Positions 33,273 to 38,095 of a stretch of 64,000 bases of DNA are shown here, in pieces. Every line of letters begins with the position of its first letter. Positions within the stretch are counted from its first letter, which is position 1. This DNA comes from Staphylococcus phage AH12, in sequence record OR455461.1. One strand, written 5' to 3'. The position numbers and the translations under genes are program-made. The notes beneath the pieces are model-generated. The model saw only the letters and a program-made list of their open reading frames with translations, was not told the DNA's origin and ran no database searches.

Positions 33273-36200
33273 GTGAAGTATCTTAATAGATTAAAGAATT
33301 TAAAATTCTATTCAATTTCAGGATATAAGATTAAAGCTATAGATGAAAATATTAAGGATCAAAAGAAAAACCAATTAATAATTTATAAAGGTTTTAAAGA
33401 AAATTCATTTATAGAATTCTTAAATAGTGGTATATTATATTATCAAAATTTCAAGAATATTTATACTCCTAGAATATATAGAACAGCAAATAGAAAATCA
33501 AGATTAATTACTAATATTTCAGATTATCAACAAGAAATTAAAAGTAAATCAATTAAATCTTATAGAGTTGAAAGAAATGAGAAATTATTTAAAGGAAGAA
33601 ACTATATAGTTGATTCAAGTAAATTTATCAATCTTGAAGATAAATCTTTAATGACTAAGAATTTTAAAACTGTATCAGATTCAATTAAAAATACTTATAA
33701 TAATTTAAATAATCCAGAAGAATATGAAAATTTATTATATGTAATTAATGTAGATGGATACAATAAATCTTCTCAAGAAGCTATTAGACCAAATACAAAA
33801 GATTTTATGTCAAGTTTATTTATGATGATTAAGAATCAGGAAGAATTACCTCATAAAGAAAATCAAAATGTAGTAGCTTTATTTATTTCTATTGAGAACG
33901 GTATAATGTTTAAATTTGATTTTAAAGATTATAATAAATTCAATAATAGATTAAGACAAAGATTAAGAAGAGCTATTGATTTAAATACACAACAAATAGA
34001 TACAGATGAAATTTCTAATGTTGAAGATGATGATAATACAGAAGCTATAGATTCAACTATTAAAAAGAAATCATTTAGCAATGTTAAAGATATTGATCCA
34101 GTTGAATTACAAGATAAGAATGAAGATGAAGTTAATCAGGATATTGAAGATTCTAAGATGGAAAAAATATCTAAGAAAATAGATGATACATTAAGATATA
34201 TTAAATCTAATGATAATATTGATATGGATATTAATGATGAATATAATATTGCAATGATAATTGAAAAAGAATTAAACAATAATAATGATCTTATTGATAT
34301 TGATGAAGATACATTATACAATGATGTACTTGATAAGAATGATTCATTTAAATCAATTAAAAGAGATATTAAAAATAAATCATATATTGGAGACACTGCA
34401 TTAAAGAATTCTAAAAAGATATTATCACTAGCTAAAAATCAAGATGAATATCTTGAAAAATTAGAAGATTTTAGTTTCTCTGAAGATAGTATTATTGATA
34501 GAGAAATTAATGAAAATGTCAATAGTATTAATGATGAAGCAATAAACAATGTATCTTCAAATGATTTTGACTTATCTTATATGAAAAAGACATTTAATAA
34601 AGACTTTGTAAATATTATGAAGAGTTTTAATGATAAGGAAGAAATACCAGTATTCATTAACAAAATGAATGTAGAAGATAATTCAGATTCTCAATCATTA
34701 AAGAATACTGTAAAAGTTCAATTTAAGAGTCCTGATGGAATTAACCATAATGTAAAATTTGATGTACCTAAAATTATTGATGGTAAATATTTAAAATTAA
34801 ATGGTGGTAAAAAGGTTCTAACTAAACAATTAATGATGTATCCTATTGTTAAATATAGACCAGATACAGTTTGGATTACAACTAATTATAATAAATTTAT
34901 CATTGAAAAATTTGGTACTAAAGAGAATTCTGAAACTGAATGGCTTAAAAAAGTTATTGAAGATAAACAAGTACTAGAATACATTAAAGATAAAAATGAT
35001 ATTAATATTCAAAAAGGTAACTCATCTTTAATTAATAAAGAATATTTAACTTCTGTGTTGTATAATAATTTATCTAAAAATATATTAAGATTCTCTAAAG
35101 ATGATTTGATAATTGATTTTAATCAAAGAAATCTTAAAAAAGTTATTTCAGAAAGTAAAACTTTAAGTGAAATTGATTATGATAAAGATAAATACTATCC
35201 TATCGGTTATAGTTCAAACAAATCTAAATTAATATTGTCAAATACTACAGAATCTATTATTTTTAAAGCTACTAAAAGTAATATAGAATCTATGAATATT
35301 AATATTACAGATTATATTATTGAACAACTTGAAGATAATATTGATTTTAGTCTAATAGATAAAAAATTCAGTAAAAATATTCAAGCTAGTAAAACAATGG
35401 CATTTTCTCGTGTTAAAATTACTAATAAATTAATTCCTACAATAGTATTATTAGGTTTCTATAAAGGTTTAACTAGTATTCTTGATCTTTATGAAGTTGA
35501 TTATAAGTTTGTTGAAGAAAATGAAAGAATAACTATTAAAGATAAGAAGAATAAAATTAAATTCCAAAATGGTTATCTTATTTATTCAACAGATAAATTA
35601 AGATATGATTTATTATTATCAGGATTAAATACTATTCCTACTTCACAATATGACTTTGAAGAATTTAATAGTGAAACACCTTACTTAGAATACTTTAATG
35701 ATAAGTTCTATAGTCGTAATGTTGGTAAAGGAATTAAAAATGCATTAGATTTAGCAATGGATCCTATTACAGAAGATGTATTAAGAGATTTAAAATTACC
35801 TGAAACTATGGTTGAGTTATTACTCTTAGCTAATACCATGCTAGAAGATGTAACTGCTAGAGAACACAATGACATGGGAATATATCGTGTACGTGGTCCA
35901 GAACAAGTTAATGCTTTAATGTATAAAATGATTGCAAATGCATATAAAGAATATTCTGACTCTTACAATAATAAGAATCCTAAGAATATTTCAGTTAAAC
36001 AAGACCAATTAATTAAAACTATTATGGAACAACCTACTGTAGATGAAGTATCTGATCTTAATCCATCTTTAGAGATTGATAAGATGACTTCAGTAACTTT
36101 TAAAGGTCCAGCAGGACGTAATAATGAACAATCATATGAACCTGATATTCGTTCATATAGTGAAAGTATGCAAGGCGTATTAGGAATATCTAGTCCTGAT

Positions 36201-38095
36201 AGTAATAAAATTGGGGTAGTTAGACAGCTTTCATATAATTCATTAATTAAATCTACTAGAGGTTATACTGATGGCGGTAAAAAAGATGCTAATGATACAT
36301 CTCTATACACTCCATTAGAATTACTTAACCCTTATTCTAGTAGACATGCCGATAATCAAACATGGATAGTCGGCTTAAAAACTATTTAATTGCTGAAATT
36401 ACTTTAAAGTTAATCAGCATCAATCAAATTGTTCAACGACTAAATAATAGATACTAATTATATAATTAGTAATGATATAGTCTCAACTATGTATAAAGTA
36501 TATAGAAATAAGATAATGTCTCCACGTATTGGAATGACTGGTATATGAATGCCCTTTATTATAGTAATATAATAATAGAAAAATCTTTAATTGCTGAGAA
36601 AATAATAATTAAGTTAATCAGCATCAATCAAATTGTTCAACGACTAAATAAGATTATACCTAAACGGTATTTGATATAGTCTCAGCTTTAATTTATTTTA
36701 AAGAAGTTCATTAAGAACTAATACACAATAAACAAAGTGTATTAAGATAATCTGACTCAAGCCAAGCACGTAATTCCAACAAAAACTAATAGTAAACCAT
36801 TAGTTGGATCTGGTGTTGATAAATCTTTAGCTTATCAATTATCAGATACATTTGCTTTTAAAGCTAAACAAGATGGTAAAGTATTAAAAATTAACGAGAA
36901 AACTGGTTTAATGACAGTAGAATATATCAATGGTGAAAAAGATATTGTTGATATATCTGAAAAATTAGCCAAAAACTCTAACTCAGGTTTTTATCAATCT
37001 AATAAACTTGATCCACAATTTAATGTAGATGACACTTTTAATAAAGGTCAAATACTTGCTAAAAATAATAATTTCTTTGCTGGATCCGGTAAAGATAATG
37101 ATATTCAATTTACTTCAGGTAAATTATCTAAAGTATCTGTAGCTAGCTCATATGGTATTATAAATGCCTTTCATTATAGTAATGTAATGTCAAAAAATTA
37201 TTAATTGCTGAGAAATATTAAATTAATCAGCATCTCTACATTTATAGAGTTCAACGACTAAATATGATTATTCATTAATACTAATGAATTTGATATAGTC
37301 TAATCTATTATAAAAATATAATAGCTAATATAAATGACTTATGAAGATAGTTCTATTATTTCTAGTAGTATGTCTGAAGCAATGTCTACTAAAGTTACTA
37401 TGAAGAAAACAGTAAATATTCCATCAAACACAAATATTCAATATATAGTTAAAGAAGGTCAGAAAGTACGTACAGGTGATCCTTTAATGATATTTGAAAC
37501 TTCATTTGATGAAGAAGGTATTGGTTCTTTATTAGATAAAATCGGTAGTGAATTTGAACAAGATATTCAAGATATAGCTAATCGAGCTGTTAGAAGTAAA
37601 TATACAGGTAATATTAAAAAGATTAATATTTATTATAATGATGATATTGAAAATATGACTGATAGTTTAGCTAAATTAGTTAATAATTACATTAAAAAAT
37701 CAAATGATAAATATAAAGAATATAAATCTGGAGTTAAAAATAATAAAGAAACTTTACCTGGTATTGATGTAGATATTGCAGCTGTAGAGAAAATTAATAC
37801 AGAGAAAATTAAAGGAGAAAAAGTTGACGGAGTTCTTATTGAAATCTTCACTGAATATGAAGATGATATGAGTGTTGGAGATAAAATTAGTTTCTACGGA
37901 GCTTGTAAAACTGTAGTTGCTGATGTAACTCCTCCAAATGAATCACCTTATTCTGAATATAGATCTGATGAAGAAGTTGAAGCTGTATTCTCTCCATTAA
38001 GTATTGTCTCTCGTATGACAGTTGATATTTATATGATGTTATTCACAAATAAAGCTTTAATAGAATTAAAACGTAAAGTAAAAGATATGGTATAA
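33273..38095 (+). CDS. RNA polymerase beta-like subunit interrupted by three group I introns; proposed exons 33273..~36383, 36513..36546 (mini-exon), 36747..~37160, ~37337..38095
   Basis: The exon-1 C-terminus 'GPAGRNNEQSYEPDIRSYSESMQGVLGISSPDSNKIGVVRQLSYNS' aligns to E. coli beta '[46 protein letters not shown]'. 'LLNPYSSRHADNQ' aligns to '[12 protein letters not shown]'. Exon-3 'QAKHVIPTKTNSKPLVGSG' aligns to '[18 protein letters not shown]'. The in-frame stops at 36387 and 37202 fall inside intron cores. Confidence 0.65.
36384..36512 (+). mobile_element. group I intron (beta intron 1), short-form 5' region, ORF-less
   Basis: P AATTGCTGAAAT lies at 36388, Q AATCAGCATC at 36412, R GTTCAACGACTAAAT at 36431 and S GATATAGTCTC at 36474. 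A P8-like hairpin is TACTAATTATATAATTAGTA. The 3' junction is TAAG|ATAATG. Confidence 0.6.
36547..36746 (+). mobile_element. group I intron (beta intron 2), ORF-less, 200 nt
   Basis: The 5' junction is GGTATAT|GAATGCCCTTTATTATAGTAAT. The P, Q, R and S elements lie at 36589-36683. The 3' junction is TAAG|ATAATC. The exon joins are in frame and give ...MTGIY|NLTQAKHVIP. Confidence 0.65.
37160..37336 (+). mobile_element. group I intron (beta intron 3), ORF-less
   Basis: The 5' junction is GGTATTAT|AAATGCCTTTCATTATAGTAAT. P lies at 37204, Q at 37226, R at 37250, a P8 hairpin is ATTCATTAATACTAATGAAT and S lies at 37286. The 3' junction is ATAAATG|ACT, analogous to beta-prime intron A. The exact splice sites remain ambiguous, since both 37336 and 37350 are possible 3' ends. 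Confidence 0.55.

What the first reader, a model, noticed from the sequence alone, without database searches (positions are those of the whole stretch)
33273..38095. RNAP beta-like gene carrying three mini group I introns and a 34-nt mini-exon; ORF-track 'stop codons' are intronic
The 1038-aa ORF ends inside intron 1, and the following ORFs (36911-37204, 37334-38095) are in-frame continuations. The beta hallmarks GPAG..., LNPYSSRHADNQ (for [12 protein letters not shown]) and KPLVGSG (for KPLVGTG) appear in the right order. Introns 2 and 3 and beta-prime intron A share a nearly identical 5' region of about 50 nt, GGTATATGAATGCCCTTTATTATAGTAAT...TTAATTGCTGAG. Intron 1 and the polB intron share a short-form 5' end. 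This points to recent intra-genome spread of one intron family into RNAP and DNA polymerase genes.
Basis: partly seen in the sequence, partly recalled or inferred. Interest (0 to 1): 0.8.

Follow-up and report, generated by a model that had tools for sequence, protein, structure and literature searches.

The report
Three compact introns in phage polymerase gene
The virion RNA polymerase beta gene of this Staphylococcus jumbo phage is interrupted by three very small (165-212 nt), ORF-less group I introns; this is real, but it is already annotated in close relatives and in Bacillus phage AR9, so only the introns' small size and high copy number are of note.

Summary
The window comes from an AR9-like Staphylococcus jumbo phage (95.6% identical to vB_StaM_PB50).

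Alignment with the uninterrupted allele of phage S6 fixes the gene structure:
- Exons: 33273-36353, 36519-36542, 36755-37156, 37337-38095.
- Introns: 36354-36518 (165 nt), 36543-36754 (212 nt), 37157-37336 (180 nt).
- The mini-exon is 24 nt, not 34. The spliced protein is 1421 aa, not about 1450.

The spliced protein aligns without gaps to S6, and to bacterial RpoB straight across junctions 1 and 2.

All three introns, two in the neighbouring beta-prime gene and one in polB belong to one compact group I family. Each has a U.G pair at the 5' splice site, a terminal G, P10 complementarity and a P3-P9 core. In Staphylococcus-phage copies 98.5% of pair cells are standard pairs and 30 of 39 pairs show compensatory changes.

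Rfam's group I model is the only family hit, but at 16-36 bits it stays below the cut-off of 50.

The kind is known. AR9's orthologue has five introns, Machias' is annotated with three, and Twort orf142 has three introns and a 23-nt exon.

Less well described are the size (151-212 nt, no open reading frame) and the abundance (20 copies in PB50).

"Recent spread" is only weakly supported. Splicing itself was not tested.

The parts
33273..36353 (+). Exon 1 of the virion RNAP beta gene (1027 codons, GTG start). Ends ...CAT GCC GAT (HAD).
   Evidence: tblastn of the S6 protein, aa 1-1023; DNA alignment A1; spliced ORF.
36354..36518 (+). Intron 1, 165 nt, short form (no P2). P1 is GCCGAU/GUCGGC with U.G at the splice site. 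The last base is G. The in-frame stop is the conserved J3/4 UAA at intron nt 34.
   Evidence: Absent from S6, present in PB50 and Madawaska. RF00028 36.1 bits, E 2.6e-7. P1/P10 table. Structure and MFE fold. Stop position.
36519..36542 (+). Exon 2, a 24-nt mini-exon: TCT CCA CGT ATT GGA ATG ACT GGT = SPRIGMTG.
   Evidence: Alignment A1. Gapless protein alignment to S6. Aligns to ANRALMGA of bacterial RpoB.
36543..36754 (+). Intron 2, 212 nt, long form. It has P2 with a GUAA loop and two extra 3' hairpins after P9. Inserted at GGT^ACTCAAG.
   Evidence: Absent from S6, PB50 and Madawaska. Same site occupied in Machias and LY01. RF00028 31.5 bits. R1 55.6 bits.
36755..37156 (+). Exon 3 (134 codons). 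Contains KPLVGSG.
   Evidence: tblastn of the S6 protein, aa 1032-1165.
37157..37336 (+). Intron 3, 180 nt, long form (P2 with a GUAA loop). Inserted at GGT^ACTTATG. Its last three bases, ATG, were read as a start codon by the ORF finder.
   Evidence: Absent from S6 and Madawaska, present in PB50, Machias and LY01. RF00028 15.9 bits. R1 54.6 bits with its 3' end at 37336.
37337..38095 (+). Exon 4 (252 codons plus stop).
   Evidence: tblastn of the S6 protein, aa 1166-1417.
31982..32158 (-). Beta-prime (mid subunit) intron A, 177 nt, long form. Its first 56 nt are 53/56 identical to intron 2, and the target is the same, GGT^ACTCAAG.
   Evidence: RF00028 27.3 bits. The S6 beta-prime gene is uninterrupted.
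31966..31981 (-). 16-nt micro-exon of the beta-prime gene (ACTCAAGAAGGTGGGT), lying between introns A and B.
   Evidence: The spliced ORF reads GRALG|TQEGG|YQAKK, matching S6 GRALGTQEGGYQAKQ.
31815..31965 (-). Beta-prime intron B, 151 nt, short form. P1 is GUGGGU/GCUCAC.
   Evidence: RF00028 26.9 bits.
62755..62908 (-). Intron of 154 nt in the DNA polymerase exonuclease-domain gene, short form. It lies just after the FDIEV (Exo I) motif. P1 is AAUUGGGU/GCUCAAUU.
   Evidence: RF00028 25.1 bits.
30119..31366 (-). Free-standing homing endonuclease gene, 36 nt downstream of the beta-prime gene. It is a possible trans-acting mobiliser of the ORF-less introns (inference only).
   Evidence: PHROG 3339 'homing endonuclease', E 4e-26. 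Pfam DUF7487, and a weak match to REase_MTES_1575.

Best explanation
The region is a single gene for the beta subunit of the virion-packaged multisubunit RNA polymerase of an AR9-like Staphylococcus jumbo phage. Three ORF-less, very compact group I introns of one family interrupt it, all within the most conserved part of beta.

**How it most likely works (inferred from group I chemistry, not tested here)**
1. The gene is transcribed as one pre-mRNA.
2. Each intron pairs an internal guide sequence with the last 3-6 exon bases (P1, with U.G at the cleavage site).
3. The intron folds a minimal P3-P9 core with the P3/P7 pseudoknot.
4. It binds free guanosine in P7, which attacks the 5' splice site.
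5. The terminal G then enters the G site, P10 aligns the 3' exon, and the exons are ligated.
6. An in-frame stop codon at or before J3/4 keeps ribosomes out of the catalytic core.
7. The mature mRNA encodes one 1421-aa protein.

The introns carry no endonuclease gene. They are probably inherited vertically and spread between co-infecting phages by recombination, or with help from homing endonucleases encoded elsewhere. A free-standing one lies 36 nt from the beta-prime gene, and related phages have endonuclease-bearing introns at or near the same sites.
For: **Shown**
- Three insertions are absent from the S6 allele and are present or absent in different relatives.
- Removing them gives one 4266-nt ORF. 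It is colinear without gaps with S6 and with bacterial RpoB across junctions 1 and 2: PYSSRHAD|SPRIGMTG|TQAKHVIP against [23 protein letters not shown].
- The spliced protein matches the PHROG family 'RNA polymerase beta subunit' at E 4e-190.
- The orthologue in phage DC4 is a 1417-aa protein detected in the virion proteome by one peptide (PMC10638138).
- All introns follow a U and end in G, with P1 and P10 complementarity in all six copies.
- Core sequences match the group I consensus: UAAUUGC, UUCAACGACUAAAU and GAUAUAGUCU. RF00028 is the only Rfam family that matches any of the six.
- The structure is supported by covariation. On the Staphylococcus-phage alignment 98.5% of cells pair, 30 of 39 pairs have compensatory changes, and slid controls pair at 27-50%. 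The wider set gives 97.0% and 35 of 39.
- An in-frame stop lies at or before J3/4 in all six.

**Precedent**
- AR9 g189 is joined from 6 pieces.
- The Machias gene is joined from 4 pieces and the Madawaska and MarsHill genes from 2.
- Korn et al. predicted introns in these genes (10.1101/2020.12.14.422802).
Against: - No RNA data were available, so splicing, and self-splicing in particular, is inferred.
- All six score below Rfam's gathering threshold (15.9-36.1 bits against 50). Whole-window Rfam scans miss them.
- The long forms have only a 3-bp exon-guide pairing (GGU/GCC).
- The helices are AU-rich.
- The short forms show no obvious tetraloop-receptor contacts. They may need a protein cofactor or may splice inefficiently.
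- The covariation alignments were fitted to the model's structure, which favours it. The slid controls argue this bias is minor.
Confidence: 0.9

Rival explanations
1. The gene is truly split. Jumbo-phage RNAP subunits are often made as separate polypeptides, and the repeated elements would be intergenic spacers or regulatory repeats between separate small genes.
For: Jumbo-phage beta and beta-prime subunits are known to be split into several genes (PMC7598289). The PB50 record annotates three separate 'viral RNA polymerase beta subunit' CDSs here.
Against: - A 24-nt piece (and a 16-nt piece in beta-prime) cannot be a gene.
- Exon 3 has no start codon until 36911, and exon 4's 'ATG' lies in the insertion.
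- The breaks fall inside the universally conserved [17 protein letters not shown]-like motif.
- S6 and DC4 encode one continuous 1417-aa protein.
- The insertions carry a covarying group I core.
Confidence: 0.03
2. The elements are decayed, non-splicing relics or MITE-like repeats that have inactivated the gene, so it is a pseudogene.
For: Rfam scores are below threshold. The elements have no ORF, are very AU-rich, and are abundant (20 copies in PB50).
Against: - All copies found in PB50 lie in gaps between fragments of essential genes: RNAP subunits, gyrB, terminase, the prohead protease and the DNA polymerase genes. Propagated phages could not tolerate losing all of these.
- The reading frame is restored exactly in all six window cases.
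- Compensatory changes show selection for RNA structure.
- Catalytic-core sequences are invariant.
Confidence: 0.03
3. The introns are real and are spliced in vivo, but they are too reduced to self-splice. They would depend on a phage- or host-encoded protein (maturase or chaperone), or on cooperation between tandem copies.
For: - They are only 151-212 nt.
- There is no P2 in the short forms, no P7.1/P7.2 and no P5abc-like extension.
- P5 is 3 bp and the helices are AU-rich.
- The exon part of P1 is 3 bp in the long forms.
- Tandem copies share identical core stretches, as in Twort orf142, where exon skipping occurs (PMC10136302).
Against: All conserved core elements and joining regions are present. 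From my own knowledge, small introns such as Azoarcus (205 nt) self-splice efficiently, and the AR9 introns were reported as self-splicing (Lavysh 2016 abstract; paper not held here).
Confidence: 0.3

Closest known systems
Introns in the virion RNAP beta gene of MarsHill-like Staphylococcus jumbo phages (Korn et al. 2020/2021; GenBank Machias MW349128, Madawaska MW349129, MarsHill MW248466)
   Same: - Same gene and same phage clade.
- Site 1 is annotated as an exon junction in Madawaska.
- Sites 2 and 3 are occupied in Machias, whose CDS is joined from 4 pieces. Its introns are nearly identical to the window's.
   Different: - Those introns were predicted from protein alignment only. The preprint's intron passages do not use the terms 'group I' or 'splic...', so intron type, RNA structure and size are not treated there.
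- No public record found combines exactly sites 1, 2 and 3. LY01 has these plus two more, all unannotated.
Bacillus phage AR9 g189, virion RNAP beta, with five introns (Lavysh et al. 2016)
   Same: Orthologous gene, joined from 6 pieces. The introns cluster in the same conserved C-terminal half. [quoted passage not shown]
   Different: - The insertion sites differ (after about aa 946-950, 979-982, 1036 and 1110 in S6 numbering, against 1023, 1031 and 1165).
- The gaps between AR9's coding pieces that hold no annotated ORF are about 300-390 nt, and one gap holds an HNH gene.
- AR9 matches the window's intron model only weakly (30 and 24 bits).
Staphylococcus phage Twort orf142: three group I introns in one gene, with a 23-nt exon and exon skipping (Landthaler & Shub 1999, as described in PMC10136302)
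   Same: Three self-splicing-type introns lie in one phage gene. Two related introns flank a mini-exon of nearly the same size (23 against 24 nt).
   Different: The Twort introns are subgroup IA2 and, from my own knowledge, roughly 250 nt long with P7.1/P7.2. The window's introns lack these helices and are 165-212 nt. Exon skipping was not tested here. Skipping the 24-nt exon would stay in frame but would delete part of a conserved motif.
Azoarcus tRNA-Ile group I intron (205 nt, subgroup IC3), the usual textbook 'small' self-splicing group I intron (own knowledge)
   Same: Minimal architecture: P1-P9 with no large peripheral domains. The J6/7-P7 and J8/7 core sequences are similar.
   Different: - The window's introns are shorter (151-212 nt).
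- Three of the six lack P2.
- The Azoarcus L9 and L2 tetraloop-receptor contacts have no obvious equivalents in the short forms.
- They sit in protein-coding phage genes, not in a tRNA gene.

Membership tests
Group I intron | The 5' splice site follows a U that forms a U.G wobble with the internal guide sequence (P1). | tested here: met
   All six copies: GCCGAU/GUCGGC, GGU/GCC (three times), GUGGGU/GCUCAC and AAUUGGGU/GCUCAAUU. The exon part is only 3 bp in the long forms.
Group I intron | The last intron nucleotide is G (omega-G), and the 3' exon can pair with the guide sequence (P10). | tested here: met
   All six end in G. P10 pairs 4-7 of the first 8 exon bases next to the P1 strand. One compensatory change (C-G to U-A) is seen between intron 2 and intron 3.
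Group I intron | A conserved core of paired regions P3-P9, supported by covariation. | tested here: met
   On alignment A8, 98.5% of cells pair, 30 of 39 pairs have changes on both sides, and slid controls pair at 27-50%. On A7, 97.0% and 35 of 39. The alignments were fitted to the model.
Group I intron | A P3/P7 pseudoknot with the guanosine-binding site in P7, and conserved J6/7, J3/4 and J8/7 sequences. | tested here: inconclusive
   GACUA/UAGUC can pair, and UUCAACGACUAAAU and GAUAUAGUCU match the RF00028 consensus. These bases never vary, so there is no covariation evidence, and guanosine binding cannot be tested here.
Group I intron | A match to Rfam RF00028 (Intron_gpI) at its gathering score of 50 bits. 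| tested here: not met
   Scores are 36.1, 31.5, 15.9, 27.3, 26.9 and 25.1 bits. E-values run from 2.6e-7 to 0.29 when short stretches are searched. RF00028 is the only family that matches all six. Whole-window scans give no hit. This is a curated cut-off, not a defining property; the shortfall comes from deleted peripheral helices.
Group I intron | Guanosine-dependent self-splicing that yields ligated exons. | not testable with these tools
   No RNA or biochemical data. The only indirect support is exact in-frame restoration.
Mobile (homing) group I intron | The intron encodes a homing endonuclease. | tested here: not met
   The introns are 151-212 nt, with stops in the host reading frame within 46 nt. 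Endonuclease genes lie outside them, for example at 30119-31366, or in other phages' introns.
Multisubunit RNA polymerase beta subunit (jumbo-phage virion RNAP) | Homology to RpoB, including the conserved active-site-proximal motifs. | tested here: met
   PHROG 'RNA polymerase beta subunit', E 4e-190. phmmer against the PDB finds bacterial RpoB 6j9e_C at E 5e-6, aligned over the ...[20 protein letters not shown]...PLVGTG region. Pfam found no Rpb2 domain. 'Virion' rests on the annotation of relatives and the DC4 proteome.

The most novel reading that the evidence does not exclude
The six introns would belong to a family of the smallest natural group I introns yet described. They are 151-180 nt in most copies, with no P2, no P7.1/7.2, no peripheral domains and no ORF. 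The family has multiplied, MITE-like, to about 20-30 copies per genome in some Staphylococcus jumbo phages and is absent from sister phages. Standard Rfam annotation does not detect it. If the introns self-splice, they would define a new lower size limit for a natural group I ribozyme. Their shared GGT^ACT targets, together with a phage-encoded reverse transcriptase, would make RNA-level (reverse-splicing) spread testable.
Probability: 0.25. Interest if true: 0.6.

Novelty: new member of a known kind. Interest (0 to 1): 0.35.

Why it matters
**Annotation.** The gene should be annotated as one joined CDS of 1421 aa. The closest public genome, PB50, lists three separate 'beta subunit' CDSs, and LY01 lists 'hypothetical proteins'. 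Rfam-based screens report no introns. Throughout these genomes, essential genes are therefore mis-annotated as fragments: 20 such gaps in PB50 hold a copy of this element.

**Biology.** The family is a natural collection of very reduced group I ribozymes with built-in sequence variation. That is useful for asking what the minimal functional group I core is. Tandem copies separated by 24-nt and 16-nt exons offer a natural system for studying exon skipping and mis-pairing between neighbouring ribozymes.

**Limits.** The existence of introns in this gene is not new. It was predicted for MarsHill-like phages, and the AR9 introns have been reported as self-splicing.

Tried and rejected
- **Rfam at gathering threshold and at an E-value threshold over the whole window.** Only two tRNA hits. 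Group I hits appear only when stretches of about 1 kb or less are searched.
- **Pfam on the spliced C-terminal 943 aa.** No RNA polymerase domain, only weak biotin-lipoyl noise. PHROGs and a PDB phmmer search were used instead.
- **MAFFT alignment of the six introns (A3).** The variable helices were misaligned, so it was not used for pair counting. It was replaced by alignments made with a covariance model built from intron 1 and my hand-derived structure.
- **A seventh model hit at 7790-7859** (19.9 bits, E 0.11). Rejected as chance: it lacks the whole P3-P7 core.
- **The TTAATTGCTGA match at 25295.** It lies in ordinary coding sequence with no core motifs.
- **IMG/VR core-pattern hits.** More than 120 stretches, mostly on contigs of 200-400 kb. 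Thirteen matched the model at E < 1e-3, but with naive model-derived ends only 2 of the 8 junctions I checked gave an open frame. I do not claim these are introns of the same size.
- **Literature.** Lavysh 2016 (PMC13189113) and the J Virol version of Korn 2021 (PMC8428398) are not held. No held paper states a smallest size for group I introns, so the Azoarcus comparison rests on my own knowledge.
- **Alternative readings considered and rejected.** An intein (the insertions contain stops and a ribozyme core), programmed frameshifting or readthrough (the insertions are absent from S6), and assembly error (the same insertions occur in independent genomes).

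
Full report
**What the window is.** The window has about 25% G+C. Positions 33273-38095 match Staphylococcus jumbo phages. The best match is vB_StaM_PB50 (95.6% identity), followed by Machias (93%) and by S6, MarsHill, Madawaska, PALS_2, UFV_DC4, SA1 and LY01 (80-82%). Bacillus phage AR9/PBS1 matches distantly. In those records the gene is annotated 'viral RNA polymerase beta subunit'.

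**Checking the observation.**
- The ORF finder gives a 1038-aa ORF (33273-36389), then short ORFs at 36911-37204 and 37334-38095.
- Phage S6 carries the same gene as one uninterrupted 4254-nt ORF.
- A four-way DNA alignment shows three clean insertions in the window relative to S6. Madawaska has only the first (annotated there as an exon junction). PB50 has the first and third. The window has all three.
- The alignment, together with the group I rules (a U before the 5' splice site, a G as the last intron base), fixes the structure:
  - exons 33273-36353, 36519-36542, 36755-37156 and 37337-38095;
  - introns 36354-36518 (165 nt), 36543-36754 (212 nt) and 37157-37336 (180 nt).
- The joined exons make a 4266-nt ORF of 1421 codons.
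- A 310-aa stretch of the product covering all three junctions aligns to the S6 protein with 83% identity and no gaps.
- The mini-exon is therefore 24 nt (SPRIGMTG), not 34, and the protein is 1421 aa, not about 1450.
- The ATG at 37334 is the end of intron 3.

**The protein.**
- The spliced product matches PHROG families named RNA polymerase beta subunit (E 4e-190).
- A phmmer search against the PDB finds bacterial RpoB (6j9e_C, E 5e-6). The alignment runs straight across junctions 1 and 2: PYSSRHAD|SPRIGMTG|TQAKHVIPTKTNSKPLVGSG against [35 protein letters not shown].
- Introns 1 and 2 therefore sit eight codons apart inside one of the most conserved beta motifs.
- Pfam did not detect an Rpb2 domain.
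- In phage DC4 the orthologue is a 1417-aa protein detected in the virion proteome by one peptide (PMC10638138).

**The insertions are one family of compact group I introns.**
- *Copies in the window.* The motif AACGACTAAA-N(10-40)-GATATAGTC occurs six times against 0 expected: three in beta, two in the divergently transcribed beta-prime gene, and one in a DNA polymerase exonuclease-domain gene.
- *Other genes restored.* Splicing the beta-prime pair (32158-31982 and 31965-31815, minus strand) restores GRALG|TQEGG|YQAKK, exactly as in the uninterrupted S6 gene, and leaves a 16-nt micro-exon. Splicing the polB intron (62908-62755) restores FDIEVDGSNVIGF|PEPG.
- *Structure.* For intron 1 I derived P1, P3, P4, P5, P6, P7, P8 and P9 by hand. 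The unconstrained minimum-free-energy fold recovers P1, P4, P5, P7, P8 and P9.
- *Model search.* A covariance model built from intron 1 alone finds exactly the other five copies in the window (E 2e-8 to 4e-7). Its ends fall on the predicted splice sites wherever the model fits the ends.
- *Covariation.* On 21 copies from Staphylococcus phages, 98.5% of pair cells are standard pairs and 30 of 39 pairs show changes on both sides. Sliding the partners gives 27-50%. A wider set including metagenomic jumbo-phage contigs gives 97.0% and 35 of 39. These alignments were fitted to the model, which favours it, but the margin over the slid controls is large.
- *Splice sites.* All six have a U.G pair at the 5' splice site, a terminal G, and 4-7 of 8 possible P10 pairs next to the P1 strand.
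- *Stop codons.* All six carry an in-frame stop at or before the conserved J3/4 UAA. This would keep ribosomes out of the core (inference).
- *Two forms.* Three copies (beta intron 1, beta-prime intron B, polB) lack P2. Three (beta introns 2 and 3, beta-prime intron A) have a P2 hairpin with a GUAA loop. Intron 2 also has two extra 3' hairpins.
- *What is missing.* None has P7.1/P7.2 or an ORF.

**Rfam.** RF00028 is the only family that matches any of the six, but at 15.9-36.1 bits against a gathering score of 50. Scans of the whole window miss all of them. The DC4 authors' Rfam screen found no introns there. This agrees with my finding that the S6-like phages lack the family.

**Distribution.** Intron sites in this gene, in S6 protein numbering:

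| Phage | Sites occupied |
|---|---|
| S6 | none |
| Madawaska | 1023 |
| PB50 | 1023, 1165 |
| Window | 1023, 1031, 1165 |
| Machias | 976 (with an endonuclease gene), 1031, 1165; annotated as 4 exons |
| LY01 | 528, 976, 1023, 1031, 1165; unannotated |
| MarsHill | one large endonuclease-bearing intron near site 2 |

- The MarsHill intron has IA2-like P7.1/P7.2. Reading the 3' junction only, it seems to lie 6 nt upstream of site 2. Its P9 and P9.1 resemble those of intron 2.
- AR9's orthologue is joined from six pieces at different sites.
- blastn with intron 1 finds the family only in PB50 (17 places), Madawaska (11), Machias (27), LY01 (30) and MarsHill (9). It finds none in S6, PALS_2, DC4 or SA1.
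- The covariance model finds 20 copies in the whole PB50 genome. All lie in gaps between fragments of essential genes: vRNAP and nvRNAP subunits, gyrB, terminase, prohead protease and DNA polymerase.

**On 'recent intra-genome spread'.**
- Over full-length alignments the six window copies are only 49-77% identical.
- Their counterparts at the same sites in Machias, PB50 or LY01 are nearly identical to them. Most insertions are therefore not recent events in this genome.
- The exception is the P1-P2 module of intron 2 and beta-prime intron A. It is 53/56 identical, and both are inserted at GGT^ACTCAAG. Intron 3 is at GGT^ACTTATG.
- That pattern fits movement to a look-alike target, or gene conversion between copies. 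It does not tell endonuclease-assisted spread from reverse splicing.
- A free-standing homing endonuclease gene lies 36 nt from the beta-prime gene. PB50 also has an annotated RNA-directed DNA polymerase.

**Comparison with what is known.**
- Korn et al. predicted introns in RNAP, polymerase, terminase, prohead-protease and gyrB genes of MarsHill, Madawaska and Machias by protein alignment, and noted the same in AR9 (10.1101/2020.12.14.422802).
- Twort orf142 has three group I introns with a 23-nt exon and shows exon skipping. Coxiella 23S rRNA has a 34-nt exon between two group I introns (PMC10136302).
- Three introns and a 24-nt mini-exon are thus a new instance of a known arrangement.
- I could not find three things described:
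  - the RNA-level character of this family (151-212 nt, shorter in most copies than the 205-nt Azoarcus intron, by my own knowledge);
  - its copy number;
  - the 16-nt micro-exon in beta-prime.

**Verdict.** The finding is real and the main interpretation is right. The numbers needed correction and the 'recent spread' claim is weak. It is a new member of a known kind. Splicing itself remains untested here.

Noticed in passing
window 31815-32158 (minus strand): The virion RNAP beta-prime (mid) gene carries two tandem introns of the same family (177 and 151 nt), separated by a 16-nt micro-exon (31966-31981). That is shorter than the 23-nt Twort and 34-nt Coxiella exons cited in PMC10136302. Skipping it would shift the reading frame.
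   Followed up: yes
window 62755-62908 (minus strand): A 154-nt intron of the same family splits the DNA polymerase exonuclease-domain gene just after the FDIEV (Exo I) motif. The spliced ORF is 571 aa (61523-63392).
   Followed up: yes
window 30119-31366 (minus strand): A free-standing homing endonuclease gene (PHROG 3339, E 4e-26; Pfam DUF7487 plus a weak restriction-endonuclease-like match) lies 36 nt downstream of the intron-bearing beta-prime gene. It is a candidate for trans ('collaborative') homing of the ORF-less introns.
   Followed up: partly
window 29517-29605 and 29964-30035 (minus strand): Two tRNA-like genes pass Rfam's tRNA threshold (60 and 45.8 bits), but ARAGORN cannot assign an anticodon to either. 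By eye, the first (89 nt) has an anticodon loop enlarged by about 14 extra bases, and the second seems to have a shortened loop. Machias annotates two tRNA-Asn genes flagged as pseudogenes in the corresponding region next to its beta-prime gene.
   Followed up: partly
PB50 genome OR770614.1 (loci L129-L134): Twenty model hits (E up to 2.5e-4) all fall in 150-190-nt gaps between CDS fragments annotated as separate genes: nvRNAP beta in 4 pieces, vRNAP beta-prime in 3, gyrB in 2, plus terminase, prohead protease and DNA polymerase genes. These genes are probably mis-annotated as fragments. Three hits cluster around a homing endonuclease gene inside the terminase gene (L129 34270-35905).
   Followed up: partly
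L126 (MarsHill) about 4346-5589: MarsHill has a roughly 1.2-kb intron with an internal ORF and T4-td-like P7.1/P7.2 sequences. Reading the 3' junction only, it seems to lie 6 nt upstream of the window's intron-2 site. Its P9/P9.1 sequence (GACTTTAAGG...CTTAAAGAAGTTCAT.AGAGAACT) resembles that of intron 2. This suggests the compact introns and the endonuclease-bearing introns exchange modules, or share descent.
   Followed up: partly
L128 (LY01) 2500-9120: LY01's virion RNAP beta gene appears to carry five introns (after S6 aa 528, 976, 1023, 1031 and 1165), including the same intron 1 / 24-nt exon / intron 2 arrangement. The record lists only 'hypothetical protein' fragments. The site-3 copy matches only model positions 29-103, so it may be interrupted.
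   Followed up: partly
IMG/VR loci L006-L125: The compact core pattern TCAACGACTAAA-N(10-40)-GATATAGTC occurs in more than 120 stretches of viral contigs. Many contigs are 200-400 kb, and several are giant-virus MAGs; there are often two to four matches per locus. Thirteen stretches match the intron model at E < 1e-3. Their exact ends and host genes were not established.
   Followed up: partly
L132 2438-3991 (PB50 150938-152491): PB50 has an annotated RNA-directed DNA polymerase. Korn et al. call the one in the MarsHill-like phages retron-like and of unknown role. It is noted only because a reverse transcriptase is the missing ingredient in the reverse-splicing route of group I intron spread.
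   Followed up: no
window 38186-39448: The ORF downstream of the beta gene (420 aa, no PHROG match) begins and ends with nearly the same peptide (LESLEESLDKEFNL ... LEESLDKEFSL). It is 234 nt longer than its PB50 counterpart (1029 nt). This may reflect a terminal duplication.
   Followed up: no
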